DNA of 29,437 bases from Tubiluchus corallicola (lineage: Eukaryota; Animalia; Priapulida). The translations under genes were made by a program, and so were the position numbers. Under the pieces are notes generated by a model. It was not told the DNA's origin, ran no database searches, and was given only the letters and a program-made list of their open reading frames with translations. Positions 1 through 28,486 of the stretch are shown here, piece after piece. The stretch spans positions 1 through 29,437 of the forward strand of contig JAQGDQ010001687.1 of assembly GCA_030141605.1 (NCBI GenBank), read 5' to 3'. The stretch's first letter is position 1; each line of letters opens with the position of its first letter.

Positions 1-305
1 TGTAAAAGTAAAAATACAAGACAACAGTACCCAATACAATCATTTCCTTTCCTTTAAAAATATCTACCAAACAATATAAGATATTTTTACTTAGTAAATA
101 TTCATTGGCGTAGAAAACCAGAGGTTTTTCTCTTTTTTGTGCACGTGTGTCTTTTTGCACTAATGTTTTTCTTTTACTAATTGGTACCATTACGACCTTT
201 GTTACTTTATTAGTAAAAGTATAAATCAATTTAAATGAAATTATTCATTCATCGCAGCCTATATCATTATCGTAATTACATATTATGTATTCCTTATGTT
301 TTTTT

Positions 306-493
306 TTGTCATTATCGTCCATTTGACTTCGTACAACATTATTTTCATCAACGCACAAAGTTCCATAATTTTTTCATCTATTATAGTGATCTAGTGATCT
401 AGACTCCAGATCAAATTTCTTGACTGACGAGTCTGTCAAAAATTTGCCAGTGAGCAGGTGCCCGGCCTCGTCCTTACTTTGACAACAAGTACC

Positions 494-496
<3 letters not shown>
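306..496 (+). repeat. ~190-bp dispersed repeat, copy A (inverted copy at 5971-6153)
   Basis: cattatcgtccatttgacttcgtac...cttgactgacgagtctgt...ctcgtccttactttgacaacaagtaccctt matches the reverse complement of 5971-6153 with scattered mismatches. Confidence 0.9.
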
Positions 497-535
<39 letters not shown>

Positions 536-3730: not shown

Positions 3731-4282
3731 TTTGTTGTTGTTGTTGGCATCCTTCTGTCTCGGAAGACAATGGAGTGTGCGCCAAGAGAGTCAGTTATTG
3801 ATCACATTGATAGGGCTGTAGCGTCGACTGTGGCTGAGCAATCCGATCCTTGAACATCTCCAGGGCGCACGCCTGGTCAAGGTGTACGGAGAACCTGAGT
3901 TGCCCAGACAACAGGAACCCCCTCTCTTCCTCCCTGGTGTAGTCCAAAGGAAAGCGGAGCGATACGTTTGGCGCCAGGTTGGCTGCAGGAGCTGCCGGAG
4001 TCGAGCATGCTGCACTGGTCCGCCTTTGGGCTCCCCTCCTGATTTGGAAGCTTTACTCCTCTACACATGGCCGTTGGGTCACTTGACCTCCTCCGCCCTC
4101 TAGCCGTTGGCTGCTTGTGCAGCTCTTCCGCCTAGTATCGAGATACAGTGTGGGCATCCCGCAAGCCTACAGCACCTGGTATTCCTAGGTGGTCACCCTT
4201 TCAAGTACTAACCAGGCTCTACGTTGCTTAACTTCGGTGATCAGACGAGAACCGGTGTTTTCAACGTGATATGGCCGTAGTT
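3731..4282 (-). mobile_element. 5S rRNA-headed SINE (SINE3-type) with RTE-like body and (CAA)n tail
   Basis: 9-bp TSD TTCTGGAAC (3722-3730, 4283-4291); 5S head 4163-4280; body 3731-4160 ends CCATTGTCTTCCGAGACAGAAGGATGC(CAA)n; body repeated at 18533-18963. Confidence 0.85.
4163..4280 (-). pseudogene. 5S rRNA-derived segment (118 nt, SINE head rather than a functional 5S gene)
   Basis: CTACGGCCATATCACGTTGAAAACACCGGTTCTCGTCTGATCACCGAAGTTAAGCAACGT...GGAATACCAGGTGCTGTAGGCTT; lacks first 2 nt, C-box region GGATGGG changed to GAAAGGG, no oligo-T terminator. Confidence 0.93.
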
Positions 4283-4518
4283 TTCTGGAACAATGAGATT
4301 TAAAAAAACTATTTACGATATATAATTGGATATATGTACAGTAATGAATTGTAATTTAATTACTCACATAAGAATTATGGTCAAATAAAATTGAACAATT
4401 TTAAAATAATTAATTTTAATAATTTTTGTTCGAAACGTTTTTCATTTTAAATTTTATGTGCACTTTAACTTATATGCAATAATATATAAGTTCATTAAAC
4501 CGTTTTATCATTACGCAG

Positions 4519-5856: not shown

Positions 5857-5970
5857 GTGAGAGCACAGAAATTCAATAGGCCTATTTTTCACTGACAGGT
5901 AAGGAGCACAGTAATCATAAGAGCAGTTGCTTAAGATGTTGTACAGAATGTCACTACAATAATGATTGAT

Positions 5971-6153
5971 AAGGGTATTTGTTGTCAAAGTAAGGACGAG
6001 ACCGAGTTCCTGCTCACTGGCAAATTTTTAACAGACTCGTCAGTCAAGAAATTTGCTCTAGAGTCTAGGTCACTATGATAGATGAAAAAATCATGGAACT
6101 TTCAGCGTTGATGAAAATAATGATGTACGAAGTCAAATGGACGATAATGGCAA
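5971..6153 (-). repeat. ~190-bp dispersed repeat, copy B (inverted relative to 306-496)
   Basis: Reverse-complement match to 306-496. Confidence 0.9.
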
Positions 6154-6182
6154 CAATAATCATTATTCTGGTGATTGTTTCC

Positions 6183-6999: not shown

Positions 7000-7166
7000 G
7001 TAGCTGCAGTGCCAAATGTCCCAGGACGTAGTATCAGGGTTAATGCAGTTTGTCCATATTTCGTGGACACTGGTCTGTTAACTGAAATGAAGCTCAAGCC
7101 GCACTTTGAAAAGCAGGGAATAGATGCGGTCAATGAATGGCGGAAAAATACGGCTGAAACACTGAC
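7000..7166 (+). CDS. HPGD: HPGD-like SDR coding exon
   Basis: aatttag|GTA...CTG AC|gtaagt; VAAVPNVPGRSIRVNAVCPYFVDTGLL... vs HPGD GVRLNAICPGFVNTAIL; 167 nt, phase 0/2. Confidence 0.92.
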
Positions 7167-7177
7167 GTAAGTACTGT

Positions 7178-7755
7178 CTTCTTCTTCTTCTTCTTCTTCT
7201 TCTTCTTCCCAGCTTTTCCCTGTGCGGGGTCGCCGTTGTGAATGAGTCTTCTCCACGCATTCCTGTTGTTGACCATCTCTTCATTTATGTTCTTCTCTCT
7301 AAGGTCTCCTTTAATTCAATCCATCTCCGCTTGGGTCCCACTTCCATTTCCATGACCTCCCTTCCCACATGATCTTCACCGCCTCTTCTTTTCAGGTGTC
7401 CATACCATCGCAATCTTGCGAGGCTTCCACTACTTTTACTGTTCCTCTGATATTATTATTTCTAATTTTATCTCTTCTTGTTATTCCCACCATCCATCTC
7501 AACATCCTCATCTCCACCACATCCATTTTCTTCTCTTCGGTCTTCTTTAGAGAAGCTGCTTCCAGCCCATAGATTAGAGCGGGTCTGACCACTTCTTTGT
7601 GGGCTTTATCTTTAAGTCTCACCGACTCATTCATAGAAGGTTTTGGCGCAGTTTTTACAGGCGGATGCCCTTCCTGACCCTAACCCTCCCTATTTATCCG
7701 GGCTTGGGACCGGCACTGAGTTGGGCTGGCTTGCCCCAACCCCAGTGGCTAGGTT
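7178..7755 (-). mobile_element. Non-autonomous, internally deleted RTE-clade retroposon (5' UTR fused to RT C-terminal remnant, (GAA)n tail)
   Basis: 17-bp TSD ACTGACGTAAGTACTGT (7161-7177, 7756-7772); remnant VVRPALIYGLEA...EMRMLRWMVGITRRDKIRN typical of the RTE RT C-terminus; GGAAGGGCATCCGCCTGTAAAA 5' UTR motif. Confidence 0.92.
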
Positions 7756-7758
7756 ACT
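7679..7758 (-). ncRNA. Twister ribozyme (P1-type with P3 hairpin) at the retroposon 5' end
   Basis: U^AA CCUA GCC [P3 hairpin] G CCGG UCCCAAGC CCGG AUAAA UAGG GAGGG; P2 CCUA/UAGG, P4 CCGG/CCGG; core GCCGGUCCCAAGCCCGGAUAAA matches the rice Osa-1-4 twister as I recall it. Confidence 0.9.
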
Positions 7759-7986
7759 GACGTAAGTACTGTATGTTCTAAAAAACCACATTCGAGTTTG
7801 TTGTCTTGCAAAAACTAAAATTATTAGCTCACCTGTCTGAATAATAATTGGTCATTTTCTTAATTTCGAAATTTCCAGTCGCACTGAAGTATTAAAAAAT
7901 TCACAAACAGTTCAGCTTCGTTATGAGATGATTTTTTCGAATTTTTGTTTCAATTCATTAAATTGATTCAGAGTTTTCATTTTCAG

Positions 7987-8122
7987 ACCGGTAGATGTCG
8001 CAAGTGCATTTATTCGATTAGTAGAAGATGATAGTCTCAATGGTGTTTGTGTTGAGATTAAAACAAATGAACACATTGATCATCTCAATACTCTTACTGG
8101 TTATAAAGAAGAGAAAGAATAA
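7987..8122 (+). CDS. HPGD: HPGD-like SDR terminal coding exon
   Basis: ttttcag|A CCG...GAA TAA; PVDVASAFIRLVEDDSLNGVCVEIKT... vs HPGD [25 protein letters not shown]; stop at 8120-8122. Confidence 0.92.
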
Positions 8123-12650: not shown

Positions 12651-13121
12651 GAGCTACTGAAGCCATTATTATACTGTAAATCAAGCCAAAAAGAAGAATA
12701 AATAATACATTAATGATACAAAGGCACAAACTGAAACTGCAAAACAACAGATTAAAATTTAACTTGTCAAAATGAACTGGGTTATAATGGGAGAAATTGC
12801 AGAAAAATGTTGTGAATTGTGCAAAATATAGATGTTGTGTTTTATTCTTATAATGCCTACTGCTGTGGTTCTTCGTTATGTAGACTTGGATTAATTGTTT
12901 CCTGTTGTCTTCTTTTTTGGTTCTCATGTGTTAGGTAAAAATTTTATACATTTCTCTGCAATTTCTTCCATTAAAGCCTAGTTTGTTTTGATAAGATAAA
13001 TTTTAATCTGTTGTTTTGTAGTTTTAGTTTTTATCTTTGTATCATTAATGCATTATTCTTTTTGGCTTAATTCATAGTTTGATAATGGCTTCGGTAGCCG
13101 AAACGATTGTCGCTCAATAAA
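12651..13121. mobile_element. Inverted repeat pair (~160-bp arms), probable Penelope-like element remnant
   Basis: 12651-12810 is the diverged reverse complement of about 12948-13099; right arm ends in a hammerhead-like core followed by AATAAA. Confidence 0.6.
13076..13114 (+). ncRNA. Minimal type I hammerhead ribozyme-like motif
   Basis: AGU UUGAUAA U GGCU-UCGGU-AGCC GAAAC-GAUU-GUC^GCU; U3-A8 replaces C3-G8; 3-bp stem I, 4-bp stem II, 2-bp stem III. Confidence 0.6.
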
Positions 13122-18532: not shown

Positions 18533-18963
18533 GGTTGTTGTTGGTTGGCATCCTGTCACGGAAGACAATGGAATGTGCGCCAAGAGAATCAGCTATTGAT
18601 CACATTGATGGAGCTGCAGCATCGACTGTGGCTGAGCAGTCCGATCTTTGAACGTCTCCAGGGCGCACACCTGGGCAAGGTGTATGGAGATCCTGAGTTG
18701 CCCAGACAACAGGAACCCCCTCTCGTCCTCGCTGGTGTAGTCCAAAGGAAAGCGGAGCAATACGTTTGGCACCAGGTTGGCTGCAGGAGCTACCGGAGTC
18801 AGTGAGCATGCTGCACTGGTCCGCCTTCGGGGCTCCACTTTTGATTTGGAAGGTTTACTCCTCTACACATGCCCGTTGGGTCACTTGACCTCCTCCGCCC
18901 TCTTGCTGTTGGCTGCCTTTTGCAGCTCCTCCGCCTAGTGTCGAGATACAGTGTGGGCATCCC
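18533..18963 (-). mobile_element. Headless copy of the RTE-like SINE body at 3731-4160
   Basis: 13-bp TSD TATTTAACATAAT (18520-18532, 18964-18976); colinear with 3731-4160; starts GGGATGCCC, ends in CAA repeats. Confidence 0.92.
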
Positions 18964-19490: not shown

Positions 19491-19574
19491 CGTAAGTGGT
19501 ATAAAATTCCAAGGTGAAGCTTTATGTAAGTGGAGGATTTTCTTGTGCTTTAATTAGCAAGTTTCGCAAGTTGT

Positions 19575-19941
19575 CATTTGAACTACCTAAGTCTACATTC
19601 GAACTACCTAAGTCTACATTTGAACTACCTAAGTCTACATTTGAACTACCTAAGTCTACATTCGAACTACCTAAGTCTACATTTGAACTACCTAAGTCTA
19701 CATTTGAACTACCTAGGTCTACATTTGAACTACCTAAGTCTACATTTGAACTACCTAAGTCTACATTTGAACTACCTAAGTCTACATTTGAACTACCTAA
19801 GTCTACATTTGAACTACCTAAGTCTACATTTGAACTACCTAAGTCTACATTTGAACTACCTAGGTCTACATTTGAACTACCTAAGTCTACATTTGAATCT
19901 ACATTTGAGTTAACGTAGGTCTACATTTGACATGTGAAACC
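19575..19941 (-). repeat. 21-bp minisatellite (CATTTGAACTACCTAAGTCTA x15) attached to one TIR of the 2139-2775 MITE family
   Basis: Array ends in gttaacgtaggtctacatttgacatgtgaaacc|ta, the reverse complement of the MITE left end. Confidence 0.93.
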
Positions 19942-20932
19942 TATAGTTATTAATGTATGGAAGTTTTACTATCATAAACGTTACACACGTGTATAGGCCA
20001 AATAATTAGGTATTTAATCGCGATAAAAATATTATTTAAACTTCGAATTTTTTGCCAGAACGTTTCGATAAAATTTATAGAGTTTAGTGAGTCTCTTATT
20101 TGGATCTGCATATTTAGAAGCCTGATGCACAAGTGCTAGGATATCAACAGCAAAAGCAACTTTTTGTTCTGGTCGTTTTCAATCAGGCTTTTTGTGCAGT
20201 AACACAGTATGTACGTGATACTAAATTTTAAACAGTTTTTTTTAGCTTTGTCTAAGTAAAGGATTTCCTTGTGCTTTAAATGATGCAAGTTTTTTGTATA
20301 CGGGCCTAGACAGAAATGAAAATATGAATACAATAAAAATTTTATTTTTATACTTAGTTAACGTCTGATCTACACAAGGCCTCTTTTATCACAACTTTAA
20401 TGGAACTAGTCTCAGGACCTGTCATTATTGGTTCTTATAGAAACACAGTTTAGTCACAAAACTTGTTTTCTGGCTACCTTTTGTACTTTTACTCTGGATA
20501 TTATACGAAATATCTGCTAATGAATCCAATTTGTTCCTTCGGGCCTCTTATTTGTGGAATTCTCTATCAGACATTGTTTACTTGTTAATAGCAGTGCCAC
20601 ACGCATCAAGAAGAATGTTAACTAGTACCACGTATCACTAGCATAATAGTCTAGGATTGTATTCTTCGGAGCATTTTGATATCTTTCCCTGAGTGGTCGC
20701 TGGTCATCTTTGATTTGTGTAAAAAAGTTTTATTTAAAGGAAAGTACAAGTCACCAAGCATGCTGGGTTTATTTTACTGTTATCACTTTACATTTGGTGT
20801 CAGTATTTCATTATGACTCGTTGAAGTCATTAAATAAACTAATAGTGATGGGCCTTTTTTAACATAGTAACTGGGTGGGGTATACTCTTACAAACGTCCC
20901 TTATACCCCCTCCAGACCCTCCCCATTAGCCC

Positions 20933-23310: not shown

Positions 23311-23442
23311 ATCGTGGGCGTGGAGTTTGTTTATTTTATCCAGAAGAACTCCCTGGACCGTCGTGCAAGGACATTGAAGATTCAAGCTCACAACGAAAGC
23401 TTCAGCAGTAGAATTATCATCAGGGAAGATTGTCTTTATTCA
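23311..23442 (+). CDS. SEC14L1: SEC14L1 third coding exon
   Basis: tttttgtag|ATC...TCA|gtaagt; IVGVEFVYFIQKNSLDRRARTLKIQAHNESFSSRIIIREDCLYS; 132 nt, phase 0/0; next exon not found in the window. Confidence 0.95.
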
Positions 23443-23478
23443 GTAAGTGACTGTTTTCATTCCCCAAGAAGTATTTTC

Positions 23479-24407
23479 ACTTTTCAGCGTAGATCAACAA
23501 TAGTTGTTTTGGTTGTACTTTTCATCATAGATCAACAATAGTTGTTTTGGTTGTACTTTTCATCATAGATCAACAATAGTTGTTTTGCTTGTACTTTTCA
23601 CCATAGATCAACAATAGTTGTTTTGCTTGTACTTTTCATCGAGGATCAACAATAGTTGTTTTGCTTGTACTTTTCATCACGGATCAGGAATAGTTGTTTT
23701 GCTTGTACTTTTCATCGTGGATCAACAATAGTTGTTTTGCTTGTACTTTTCATCATGAATCAACAATAGTTGTTTTGCTTGTACTTTTCATCACGGATCA
23801 ACAATAGTTGTTTTGCTTATACTTTTCATCATGGATCAACAATAGTTGTTTTGCTTGTGCTTTTCATCATGAATCAACAATAGTTGTTTTGCTTGTACTT
23901 TTCATCACGGATCAGCAATAGTTGTTTTGCTTGTACTTTTCATCACGGATCAACAATAGTTGTTTTGCTTGTACTTTTCATCATGGATCAACAATAGTTG
24001 TTTTGCTTGTACTTTTCATCACGGATCAACAATAGTTGTTTTGCTTGTACTTTTCATCGTGGATCAACAATAGTTGTTTCGCTTGTACTTTTCATCGTAG
24101 ATCAACAATAGTTGTTTTGTTTGTACTTTTCATCATGGATCAACAATAGTTGTTTCGCTTGTACTTTTCATCGTAGATCAACAATAGTTGTTTTGTTTGT
24201 ACTTTTCATCATGGATCAACAATAGTTGTTTTGCTTGTACTTTTCATCGTGGATCAACAATAGTTGTTTCGCTTGTACTTTTCATCGTAGATCAACAATA
24301 GTTGTTTTGTTTGTACTTTTCATCATGGATCAACAATAGTTGTTTTGCTTGTACTTTTCAGCGTGGATCAACAATAGTTGTTTTGCTTGTACTTTTCATC
24401 ACGGATC
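23479..24407. repeat. 38-bp minisatellite, about 24 copies
   Basis: Unit GATCAACAATAGTTGTTTTGCTTGTACTTTTCATCAYG, head to tail, no spacers. Confidence 0.97.
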
Positions 24408-25181
24408 TAGATTCGAAAATTCCGAAATGACTTTCGGTTTGATCTAAGATTGAGAGTCAGAAATTCATTTCGATTTGAATTCGCTTTCTAGTAGAGAATG
24501 CTCATACTTTGTTACAAGCGTGTTTGAGCAAGGTCATAAATTACACAGAGTGCATCGTTATGATGGTCAACCTTTCATTTATTGTGAGCTTAAAACAATA
24601 AACTAACTATAGACAAGGTTGTTTCAGCACCTGTTACAAGGTAAGATTAACAAATAACGTTTGCTGGGGTTAGCGGTCAATGGATGTCCTTGTGGTTGCT
24701 TGTGTCGAAAACATTCTAATCTCAAATGCAAATGTTTGACGGAAGAAAGAGTGCAGTTCAAAAACTTTGTACAGATGTTCTTATCACTACTCAGAGATCA
24801 TGGATGCTGATGATTTGCTACCGTGGATAAAATACGAGTCAAATCGATGCTTAAAATTTCGATTTCGAACTAAATTCGAATTTGATTTTAACACTTTTTC
24901 CAATCAATTTTGAATCCTTAATGGAATTTATTGTATGAATTACCTTAGTGGAAAAGTTGAAGAGCTCTATAATTGGGTTGATACAATAGTATCAGTGAAA
25001 TGCTAGATCCTTCAATTGTCAGATGGAATTAACGTCTTTTTCTAAAAACTAAATCTTAAGTAGTTCCAAAAAAAGCTACCAAATAATATTTTCATGCTCA
25101 ATTATATAATTTATTATTGTTCAAAATTTTGCCCTTTTTGAAACTAAATACGGTTTCTCATGTGGTTTTCATGAAACTTGC

Positions 25182-25858
25182 AACTTTAGTATTATCAGTT
25201 ACCTCTAAAGTTAAATTTTAATTGAGTTTCTAAATCTAGCAACTTGATTATAGACTTTCAATAAGCCTTTTCACAGTTTCGCTATGTTCACACGTAGTTG
25301 CAGTACGTCATTAGTAACTTCAGTATTATCAGTTACCATTAAAAGTTAAATTTTAATTGAGTTTCTAAATCTAGCAACTTGATTATAGACTTTCAATAAG
25401 CCTTTTCACAGTTTCGCTATGTTCACACGTAGTTGCAGTACGTCATTAGTAACTTCAGTATTATCAGTTACCATTAAAAGTTAAATTTTAATTGAGTTTC
25501 TAAATCTAGCAACTTGATTATAGACTTTCAATAAGCCTTTTCACAGTTTCGCTATGTTCACACGTAGTTGCAGTACGTCATTAGTAACTTCAGTATTATC
25601 AGTTACCATTAAAAGTTAAATTTTAATTGAGTTTCTAAATCTAGCAACTTGATTATAGACTTTCAATAAGCCTTTTCACAGTTTCGCTATGTTCACACGT
25701 AGTTGCAGTACGTCATTAGTAACTTCAGTATTATCAGTTACCATTAAAAGTTAAATTTTAATTGAGTTTCTAAATTTAGAAACTTGATTATAGACTTTCA
25801 ATAAGCCTTTTCACAGTTTCGCTATGTTCACACGCAGTTGCAGTACGTCATTAGTAAC
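25182..25858. repeat. 135-bp tandem repeat, 5 copies
   Basis: Units start at 25182, 25316, 25451, 25586, 25721; inner copies appear identical. Confidence 0.97.
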
Positions 25859-26643
25859 CACTGTTGTTTTGCGTGAACTTTACTTAATTATGCATTAGTC
25901 TGTTCGCAGAGTGATTAACTAGCAGGTTCTTGCTTGGTAGTGAACAAGAAAAAATGAGCTAGGTAAGGTTCTAGCTAGCTGTTAAAGCTGTTACTATTAC
26001 AGTAGCAATGTAGGGCTGCGAGGCATTGTCCAAGTGTACGCAAATGCGTTTTCTGATGACCTTTGACCTTTTCACGATCATCGGCAATCGCTGGAACTGT
26101 GAAAAGGCTTATTGGTATGTTCAGAGAATGAAGTCGTTTGCTGCCTGGTGGAAAATGTGTCATATCCAGGTAAGGTAAATGTGGTAGGTTAGCTGAGCCA
26201 GTGAACGTCGCTTGATTGATTTTTTCCATACATGAATACACGGCGTGATCGATTAGCTAAAGTAACTCTTTGTTGGTAACAAATACTGAATGAATTACGT
26301 TTTACCAGTTTGCGGCATGAATGGCAGCGAATATTGACAGATTGAGCTGCATCTGAGGCTCGGTAGGTTTGCTAATGTTTGTACAACATCTGACAGCAAA
26401 TATTAGTACAGCTTCAGTACATGAACGATGTATTACAGTTATGTGTGGTCGAAGTAATAGTTCTTGTGAATGGGTAGAATTGACACATGAAATGATTGTG
26501 TGAATGGGTATGTGACAGAAGAAATAAGTGGAATAAATGTTACATGGCAGATGAAATAATTTATGTAAGATTAGACAAACAGTGCATGTTTCTCCACTTA
26601 GGCAAACCAGGTTGAGGCTTTTTACCCAATTTGGCATTCCCTA

Positions 26644-27554
26644 AGGGTCATTTCACAGTGAGGACGCGCGGCAAAAAGCCTCAAGCGGAAATACCTTGCG
26701 GCATTCCTCACTAAAATGCAACACATTGTTGTCTGTGTCCCATTTCACGTGAGGACGCATGACAAAATTCCTCGTGCAATTCCTCTGAGGAATTCTGCTG
26801 CCAGCTAGAAGCTATGCATCCTCCTTGTGAGGAATTTTGCCGCATAATAGAAATACTGCATGTTACACTTTCGTGAAGAATCCTCGCTGAATTGAGTTTT
26901 AAGTTTAACTACTCAATTACCTCTTTCTTATTTAATGAACAAAAATTAACACGTTCAGCATAAAATTGTAAGATTCAGTCTCTCTTTTAACAGACTGACG
27001 ATTTTAAGTTTTATTAATGCAACATCGATGGCTATATTCATGAAAAAGAAAAATATCGCACGCATATATTTATTTTATATGTATGTATATTTTCAGATTT
27101 TGAAGTGGTTAGTAGAACTTTACTAAAAAAAACAAAGAAATCTGACATTACATTGACAACATTATTAATTGTACTTTGTATTTGAGAAGTATGGCAAGTA
27201 TAACTCAATTTAGACATAATTATACAGACTAACATTATTAATTGTACTTTGTATTTGAGAAGTACAGCAAGTATAACTCAATTTTGACTTAATTATACAG
27301 ACTAACATTATTAATTGTACTTTGTATTTGAGAAGTATGGCAAGTATAACTCAATTTAGACATAATTATACAGTATAATATTCGCAAAGTAGCTGCAGCT
27401 AACTGGATGCACGGAAAAAAAGCCGCGCGGTTTCTGAACTTTCTTGTTGCATTTGATTTCGAAAAAAATTGGAAATTTTTAGAAAATTTTCTGATTTTCT
27501 GACAGCACTTTTGTGTGTCTTTTTTTCCTTGCGTCCTCGCTATAAAATGGGCCT
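26644..27554. mobile_element. Non-autonomous TIR DNA transposon, copy 2, with internal 73-bp triplication
   Basis: ta|agggtcatttcacagtgaggacgc ... gcgtcctcgctataaaatgggcct|ta; colinear with 8849-9617; 73-bp units at 27158, 27231, 27304. Confidence 0.9.
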
Positions 27555-28143: not shown

Positions 28144-28486
28144 GTCCTAGGATCTAGGGTGGATCCACGATTGGTACTAGATGCCGAGGTCTTCTGCAGT
28201 GTTCTAGGGTCTAGGGTGGATCCATGATTGGTACTAGATGCAGAGGTCTTCCGCAGTGTTCTAGGGTCTAGGGTGGATCCACGATTGGTACTAGATGCAG
28301 AGGTCTTCCTCGGTGTCCTAGGATCTAGGGTGGATCCACGATTGGTACTAGATGCGGAGGTCTTCCTCAGTGTCCTAGGACTAGGTTGGATCCACGATTG
28401 GTACTAGATGCAGAGGTCTTCCTCAGTGTCCTAGGATCTAGGGTGGATCCACGACTGGTACTAGATGCAGAGGTCTTCCTCAGTGT
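28144..28486. repeat. 57-bp palindrome-rich tandem repeat, 6 copies
   Basis: Unit GTCCTAGGATCTAGGGTGGATCCACGATTGGTACTAGATGCAGAGGTCTTCCTCAGT. Confidence 0.96.

What the first reader, a model, noticed from the sequence alone, without database searches (positions are those of the whole stretch)
7679..7758. Twister ribozyme whose cleavage site is the exact element 5' end, with the U supplied by the target site
Seen: minus strand ...GUCAG U^AA CCUA GCC ACUGGGGUUGGG-loop-CCCAACUCAGU G CCGG UCCCAAGC CCGG AUAAA UAGG GAGGG UU. The TSD ends at the U (7756) and the element begins at the A (7755), so the inserted RNA looks like the 3' cleavage product. Host bases restore the U and a 2-bp P1 (G-U, A-U). 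Known: twister cleaves at U^A, tolerates a short P1, and marks 5' ends of Schistosoma Perere-3 RTE elements. Inference: this copy may still be active, and target sequence may determine which copies can re-mobilise. It is antisense to the host gene, so the pre-mRNA is not cut.
Basis: partly seen in the sequence, partly recalled or inferred. Interest (0 to 1): 0.8.

Follow-up and report, generated by a model that had tools for sequence, protein, structure and literature searches.

The report
Twister-headed shortened RTE retrotransposon copy
This is one copy of an abundant 578-base jumping element made of the two ends of a longer retrotransposon; its copies begin at the base where a predicted self-cutting "twister" RNA would cut, so they likely trim themselves out of host transcripts, an arrangement already published for a blood-fluke retrotransposon.

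Summary
Observation confirmed. Minus-strand 7680-7760 matches Rfam twister-P1 (59.3 bits, E 7e-13; below the 67.2 gathering score). A perfect 17-bp target-site duplication ends at U7756 and the element starts at A7755. The element is a 578-nt internally deleted RTE-like retroposon: twister, 5'UTR stub, C-terminal ORF remnant, (GAA)10 tail. Sequencing contigs show an abundant family whose 5' junctions pile up at this base (36 of 41 listed junction contigs in one run stop at 7755 or 7756, the other five within 4 bases). The U is not needed at the junction: 17 of 41 junctions have it (32% expected, p 0.15), and published work shows C, G or A at -1 also cleave and P1 is dispensable. The -1 table cannot test it. 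This copy is antisense in an intron of a 15-PGDH-like gene, so it is an unlikely source copy, and it duplicated the exon's splice donor. The scan has noted four twister-headed mini-RTEs in other genomes (unchecked notes). New member of a known kind; cleavage itself is untested.

The parts
7756..7772 (-). 5' copy of the 17-bp target-site duplication; its last base (7756) is U-1 of the twister, 7757-7758 give the 2-bp P1
7680..7760 (-). Type-P1 twister ribozyme match; predicted cut between 7756 and 7755; P2 7753-7750 with 7692-7689; long P3 hairpin; L1 3' strand 7688-7684 whose first G (7688) is the likely general base (position by analogy, recalled)
   Evidence: Rfam RF03160 59.3 bits, E 7.3e-13; pairs listed
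7621..7679 (-). 5'UTR stub shared with a full-length APE+RT element (L002); ends in an ATG (7634-7632) in frame with the ORF remnant; internal-deletion breakpoint at about 7621/7620
   Evidence: blastn 82% over 96 nt to L002; frame; breakpoint table 7 (X3 row 7620)
7226..7620 (-). Broken remnant of the C-terminal ~145 codons of an RTE-like ORF, in three frames (breaks near 7420 and 7320, a 7-codon gap near 7340)
   Evidence: tblastn 37-41% to L002 ORF residues 843-954, E 4e-12; 52/43/36% to catfish proteins, E 3e-24
7178..7208 (-). (GAA)10 microsatellite tail, 3' end of the element
7161..7177 (-). 3' copy of the TSD; on the + strand it holds the last 6 exon bases and the splice donor (GT at 7167-7168)
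7000..7166 (+). Host exon of a short-chain dehydrogenase, 15-hydroxyprostaglandin dehydrogenase-like; exon limits read from AG/GT and frame, no RNA evidence
   Evidence: Pfam adh_short_C2 E 8e-4; tblastn with P0001; P0001 vs PDB 15-PGDH E 6e-52
7762..7767 (+). Duplicated splice donor, 595 nt downstream of the real one, created by the TSD
7979..8083 (+). Next (likely last coding) host exon; shows the element lies in an intron
   Evidence: tblastn 63%, E 9e-11

Best explanation
This is a copy of an abundant, internally deleted RTE-like retroposon whose 5' end coincides with the predicted cut site of a type-P1 twister ribozyme, and that end was likely made by self-cleavage of the parent RNA. Shown: twister match, 17-bp TSD ending at -1, two-part anatomy, family junctions clustered at A+1 with unrelated upstream sequence, contigs bridging the internal deletion, and one contig in which the ORF continues past the deletion point. 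Inferred: a parent copy was read through from a host promoter; the twister cut the co-transcript before the AA; the protein of a full-length RTE reverse-transcribed it from the (GAA)n end at a nick 11 bases into this intron; the second nick, 17 bases away, set the bases that now stand in for U-1 and the P1 5' strand. Those bases are whatever the target offers. This copy would probably self-cleave in vitro but is an unlikely source of new copies, being antisense to the host gene.
For: Rfam match with every upper-case consensus position matched. TSD. Junction contigs whose alignment ends behind 7755/7756/7757-7760: 24/12/5 in X2; 14/8/2 plus one at 7754 and one at 7764 in X1 (same sample as X2); 4/3/2 in X3 (another study); upstream consensus agreement 0.45-0.63 in the pooled rows, i.e. 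no shared upstream sequence (18 of 20 rows shown). Contigs span 7534-7671 across the deletion point (table 8). One X3 contig leaves at 7620 and its loose letters read, by hand, as 9 codons with 7 identical to L002 ORF 834-842. L002 is a full-length twister-headed element with a 998-aa APE+RT ORF; L001, a short twister-headed element, has a 13-bp TSD ending directly before its AA. Same layout and in vitro cleavage for Perere-3 (PMC8501958).
Against: No cleavage assay and no stranded RNA reads. Score is below the Rfam gathering threshold. Nearest-neighbour folding does not return the twister fold: MFE z -0.63, P2 probability 0.001 and a 12.6 kcal/mol gap to a fold compatible with the active state; that model omits both pseudoknots and had no active-ribozyme control. 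Junction counts come from the contigs that could be laid on a 75-base stretch (113, 66 and 37 records), which under-samples copies truncated further inside. No TSD was found at the twister in L002 or L003 (L003's contig ends inside the element). RTE clade was not shown by a tree.
Confidence: 0.85

Rival explanations
1. The sharp 5' end is a transcription start from an internal promoter in the RTE 5'UTR, or a stop point for reverse transcription at the folded head; the twister is a passenger or serves only translation of the parent LINE.
For: Sequence data cannot tell a cut from a start; folding models give no support for the active fold in this context; PMC5786205 discusses regulatory function for the conserved RTE 5'UTR (passages).
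Against: The end falls exactly on the scissile bond here, across the family and in L001; the catalytic core is unchanged; homologous heads cleave in vitro and in reporters (PMC8501958).
Confidence: 0.08
2. One reading: U-1 and a target-made P1 are needed for cleavage, so the target site gates which copies can re-mobilise, and this copy is one of the live ones.
For: U at -1 is somewhat above background: 22 of 50 junctions in X2+X3 against 32% (p 0.059). Perere-3 variants differ in rate with their P1 (PMC8501958 sections 19, 21).
Against: C, G and A at -1 also cleave; P1 is dispensable; the native flank is unremarkable in the folding model (76% of 400 random flanks give a smaller gap; mean gap by -1 base 11.3-12.1 kcal/mol); the copy is antisense to the host gene and has its own indels. 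A U excess among inserted copies would reflect integration, not parent fitness.
Confidence: 0.12
3. The copy matters mainly through the host gene: the duplicated splice donor gives an alternative 595-nt-longer exon with an immediate stop codon that lowers enzyme output.
For: The TSD copies 6 exon and 11 intron bases of the donor; read-through meets TAA at once.
Against: No RNA evidence was available; the proximal donor is intact; the insertion junction is present in a second study's contig whose flank differs at 10 of 261 bases, so it is tolerated.
Confidence: 0.07

Closest known systems
T-variant twister ribozymes at the 5' end of Perere-3 (RTE clade), Schistosoma mansoni; PMC8501958 (read: abstract, passages, sections 19, 21, 22, one supplement search)
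   Same: Type-P1 twister head, TSD directly before the AA, TSD supplies the P1 5' strand, non-specific target, short-repeat tail; model that the target sets later activity is stated there. Its supplement lists a channel catfish T-variant that by eye closely resembles this head, including the P3 loop and the downstream UTR start.
   Different: Non-autonomous 578-nt internally deleted element rather than a full-length LINE; (GAA)n rather than GTAA tail; another animal; longer P3.
Bipartite non-autonomous RTE elements (Bov-A, RTESINE1/2, WALLSI3, MAR4_MD); PMC5786205 and PMC7245038 (read: passages)
   Same: Only the 5' and 3' ends of an RTE kept after internal deletion; PMC5786205 notes they usually keep the LINE's 5' end and links this to 5' ribozymes.
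   Different: The passages seen cite Ruminski 2011 ribozymes and do not name twister; here the 3' part includes about 145 codons of ORF.
Truncated twisters at RTE 5' ends, de la Pena review PMC7761336 (read: passages)
   Same: States that truncated but catalytically competent twisters are conserved at the 5' end of RTE-superfamily retrotransposons.
   Different: Given as 'in preparation'; I found no full paper.
R2 elements and R2 SIDEs with HDV-like 5' ribozymes (seen only as cited)
   Same: Ribozyme frees the element from a host co-transcript; internally deleted derivatives keep it.
   Different: Different ribozyme class, site-specific rDNA target, restriction-like endonuclease.

Membership tests
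Twister ribozyme, type P1 (RF03160) | Covariance-model match over the whole model | tested here: met
   59.3 bits, E 7.3e-13, model 1-68
Twister ribozyme, type P1 (RF03160) | Score at or above Rfam gathering threshold (67.2) | tested here: not met
   the P1 mismatch and long P3 insert are the visible departures
Twister ribozyme, type P1 (RF03160) | Conserved L1, L2, L4 nucleotides and stems P2, P4; bases for pseudoknots T1 and T2 | tested here: met
   all upper-case consensus positions matched, no non-standard pair in P2-P4; P2 pairs
Twister ribozyme, type P1 (RF03160) | Four-pair P1 stem | tested here: not met
   2 contiguous pairs, a mismatch, one wobble; P1 is dispensable per PMC5408937, so this lowers 'canonical P1', not 'works like twister'
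Twister ribozyme, type P1 (RF03160) | Self-cleavage before the AA | not testable with these tools
   indirect only: junction pile-up; folding model inconclusive
T-variant/Perere-3-type arrangement | TSD directly adjacent to the AA at the cleavage site | tested here: met
   family junctions; L001
T-variant/Perere-3-type arrangement | Intact APE+RT ORF downstream | tested here: not met
   only a broken C-terminal remnant; met in L002
Bipartite non-autonomous RTE | 5' and 3' ends of a LINE joined by internal deletion | tested here: met
   5' 104 nt align to L002 head, 3' part to L002 ORF end
Bipartite non-autonomous RTE | Deleted form is itself multi-copy | tested here: met
   several differing contigs bridge 7620 in X1, X2, X3, X4 (table 8); depth continuous across it
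Bipartite non-autonomous RTE | Parent LINE belongs to the RTE clade | tested here: inconclusive
   single ~1000-aa APE+RT ORF in L002 fits the RTE description in PMC8501958; none of the 120 listed homologues is named RTE; no tree built
Bipartite non-autonomous RTE | Autonomous partner in the same genome | tested here: inconclusive
   one X3 contig continues into ORF sequence past 7620 (table 7); no genome held

The most novel reading that the evidence does not exclude
In this genome a large family of promoterless, protein-free twister-headed retroposons rebuilds its own substrate strand from each new target, so flank sequence and host transcription together pick the few source copies; the family is a ready natural library (hundreds or more -1/P1 variants on one core) for testing that gate, and the mild U excess at -1 would record an untemplated or microhomology step at 5' junction formation.
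Probability: 0.15. Interest if true: 0.5.

Novelty: new member of a known kind. Interest (0 to 1): 0.22.

Why it matters
It extends the Perere-3 twister arrangement to a non-autonomous, internally deleted family in another animal, and gives a first rough count showing that the base before the cut site is close to random (about 4 in 10 U). That argues that 5' ends are set by the ribozyme and not by a U in the target. As a principle it is already in print; its value is as a further example with an intact catalytic core and as material for testing the published target-gating model.

Tried and rejected
Whole-genome table of copies: no genome is held, so junctions were counted from sequencing contigs. 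Rfam at gathering threshold misses the motif. No second twister core in the window by motif search or blastn. Pattern scan of viral contigs: 0 matches. Thermodynamic folding as a test of activity: uncalibrated and without pseudoknots, so no verdict. TSD search at L002 and L003: none at the twister. Naming the RTE clade from homologue names or from the supplement of PMC5786205 (0 occurrences of two motifs; figures may not be held as text) failed. A full paper on truncated RTE twisters was not found (subscription journals are not covered; bioRxiv supplements closed). Full-text motif search gave two unrelated papers; PMC10085705 passages were irrelevant. An empty (pre-insertion) allele was not among the 15 of 40 joints shown, and the tail region was skipped as repeat: no conclusion. 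Summed contig depth was not used as copy number. The -1 base table as a test of 're-mobilisation gating' was rejected on logic: it reports new targets, not parents. The X1 row at 7754 was left out of the -1 count (25 of 26).

Full report
Observation. Rfam twister-P1 matches 7680-7760(-) over the full model at 59.3 bits, E 7.3e-13, below the gathering score of 67.2, so the whole-window gathering scan lists only a 5S rRNA gene. All upper-case consensus positions are matched and stems P2-P4 have no non-standard pair; P1 has G:U and A-U, then a mismatch. A perfect 17-bp direct repeat lies at 7161-7177 and 7756-7772; the next best is 8 bp and chance is about 2e-6. The 5' repeat ends at U7756; the element starts at A7755 and is 578 nt long.

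Anatomy. After the twister come about 60 nt of 5'UTR, then at about 7620 a jump into the last ~145 codons of a LINE ORF, broken in three frames, and a (GAA)10 tail. A metagenome pattern scan for twister core plus UTR motif gave 3 loci, all with twister-P1 matches of 40-42 bits. L002 is a full-length element with one 998-aa ORF carrying endonuclease and RT domains; its head is 82% identical to ours over 96 nt and its C-terminus matches our remnant (E 4e-12). L003 is another internally deleted element. L001 is a short element whose 13-bp TSD also ends directly before the AA. Best protein matches to the remnant are catfish proteins at 52%; 113 of 120 listed homologues hit it. None is named RTE, so the clade rests on the single APE+RT ORF as described for RTE in PMC8501958, not on a tree.

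Family. No genome is held. Contigs of four runs (two samples) were laid on 7000-8000 and three on 7716-7790. Different contigs bridge the deletion point, so the short form is itself multi-copy. One X3 contig leaves at 7620 and continues, by my hand translation, in ORF sequence (7 of 9 residues as in L002 834-842), a hint of the longer parent. In one search (18 of 20 loose-end rows shown) junction contigs stop behind 7755, 7756 or later in 24, 12 and 5 cases (X2), 14, 8 and 3 cases plus one at 7754 (X1, same sample), and 4, 3 and 2 cases (X3). Their upstream letters share no consensus. The element therefore begins at A+1. Counting a stop at 7756 or later as U at -1 gives 17 of 41, 11 of 25 and 5 of 9, against 32% background; X2+X3 22 of 50, p 0.059. 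A mild excess is possible; a requirement is excluded. The short stretch under-samples copies truncated further inside.

Host context. A 258-aa homologue (P0001), closest to 15-hydroxyprostaglandin dehydrogenase in the PDB (E 6e-52), maps to five + strand exons between 1809 and 8083. The element is antisense in the intron after exon 7000-7166, so the pre-mRNA carries the reverse complement of the twister. The TSD spans the exon end, so the donor now occurs twice (7167 and 7762). The 5' junction is also in an X3 contig whose flank differs at 10 of 261 bases, so the insertion is shared between samples.

Mechanism. Most likely (0.85): read-through transcript of a parent copy, twister cleavage before the AA, reverse transcription in trans from the tail, and a second nick that fixes which host bases sit at -1 to -5. 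Junction positions and anatomy are shown; cleavage and trans-mobilisation are inferred. Against: no assay; nearest-neighbour folding does not give the twister fold (z -0.63; P2 probability 0.001), though it omits pseudoknots and had no control. In the same model the native flank is ordinary (76% of 400 random flanks give a smaller gap).

Known work. PMC8501958 (abstract, passages, sections 19, 21, 22) reports TSDs next to the AA, TSD-made P1, cleavage with any base at -1, and the model that the target sets later activity; its supplement lists a catfish head that by eye closely resembles ours. PMC7761336 (passages) states that truncated twisters are conserved at RTE 5' ends. PMC5786205 and PMC7245038 (passages) describe bipartite non-autonomous RTEs as common. 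PMC5408937 (passages) reports near wild-type cleavage without P1. PMC6765202 (passages) covers ribozymes freeing elements from co-transcripts. I found no paper on twister heads in bipartite RTE families specifically. The scan's own unchecked notes describe four such elements in other genomes; none by sequence.

Verdict. Real, well supported, and a new member of a known kind. Interest 0.22.

Noticed in passing
window 7161-7177 and 7756-7772 (+): The TSD duplicates the host exon's splice donor; use of the second donor would add 595 nt and meet a stop codon at once.
   Followed up: partly
window 7734-7743: The P3 5' strand here has two T's inside a G run that pair with two A's on the 3' strand; contigs at this same locus in X2 and X3, and most family contigs, show an unbroken G run of variable length. 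Allelic change, hairpin-templated correction or sequencing artefact: unexplained.
   Followed up: partly
window 7634-7632 (-): An ATG at about the position of the L002 start codon is in frame with the first ORF remnant (one chance in three); L003 shows no such ATG.
   Followed up: partly
L001 about 3977-4290: A ~290-nt twister-headed element with a (GT)n tail, no ORF remnant seen and a 13-bp TSD; nine bases of that TSD equal bases +2 to +10 of the window's element, probably coincidence.
   Followed up: partly
L002 174-3297 (-): Full-length twister-headed APE+RT element with an open 998-aa ORF; its twister has a damaged 5' edge (no AA) and no TSD was found.
   Followed up: partly
window 4164-4282 (-): 5S rRNA gene copy (107 bits) inside a host intron; its flank 3755-4002 recurs at 18553-18800 (92%), and a related stretch lies near 18955.
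   Followed up: no
window 296-497 and 5970-6163: Inverted repeat arms of about 200 nt, 90-92% complementary, 5.5 kb apart, next to microsatellites.
   Followed up: no
window 12653-13098: Inverted repeat of 110 nt plus 47 nt arms around a 137-nt spacer, MITE-like.
   Followed up: no
window 19505-19960, 23365-24538, 25072-25881, 27158-27382, 28151-28486: Tandem arrays with units of 21, 38, 135, 73 and 57 nt; the 21-nt unit also appears at 2133-2765 in both orientations.
   Followed up: no
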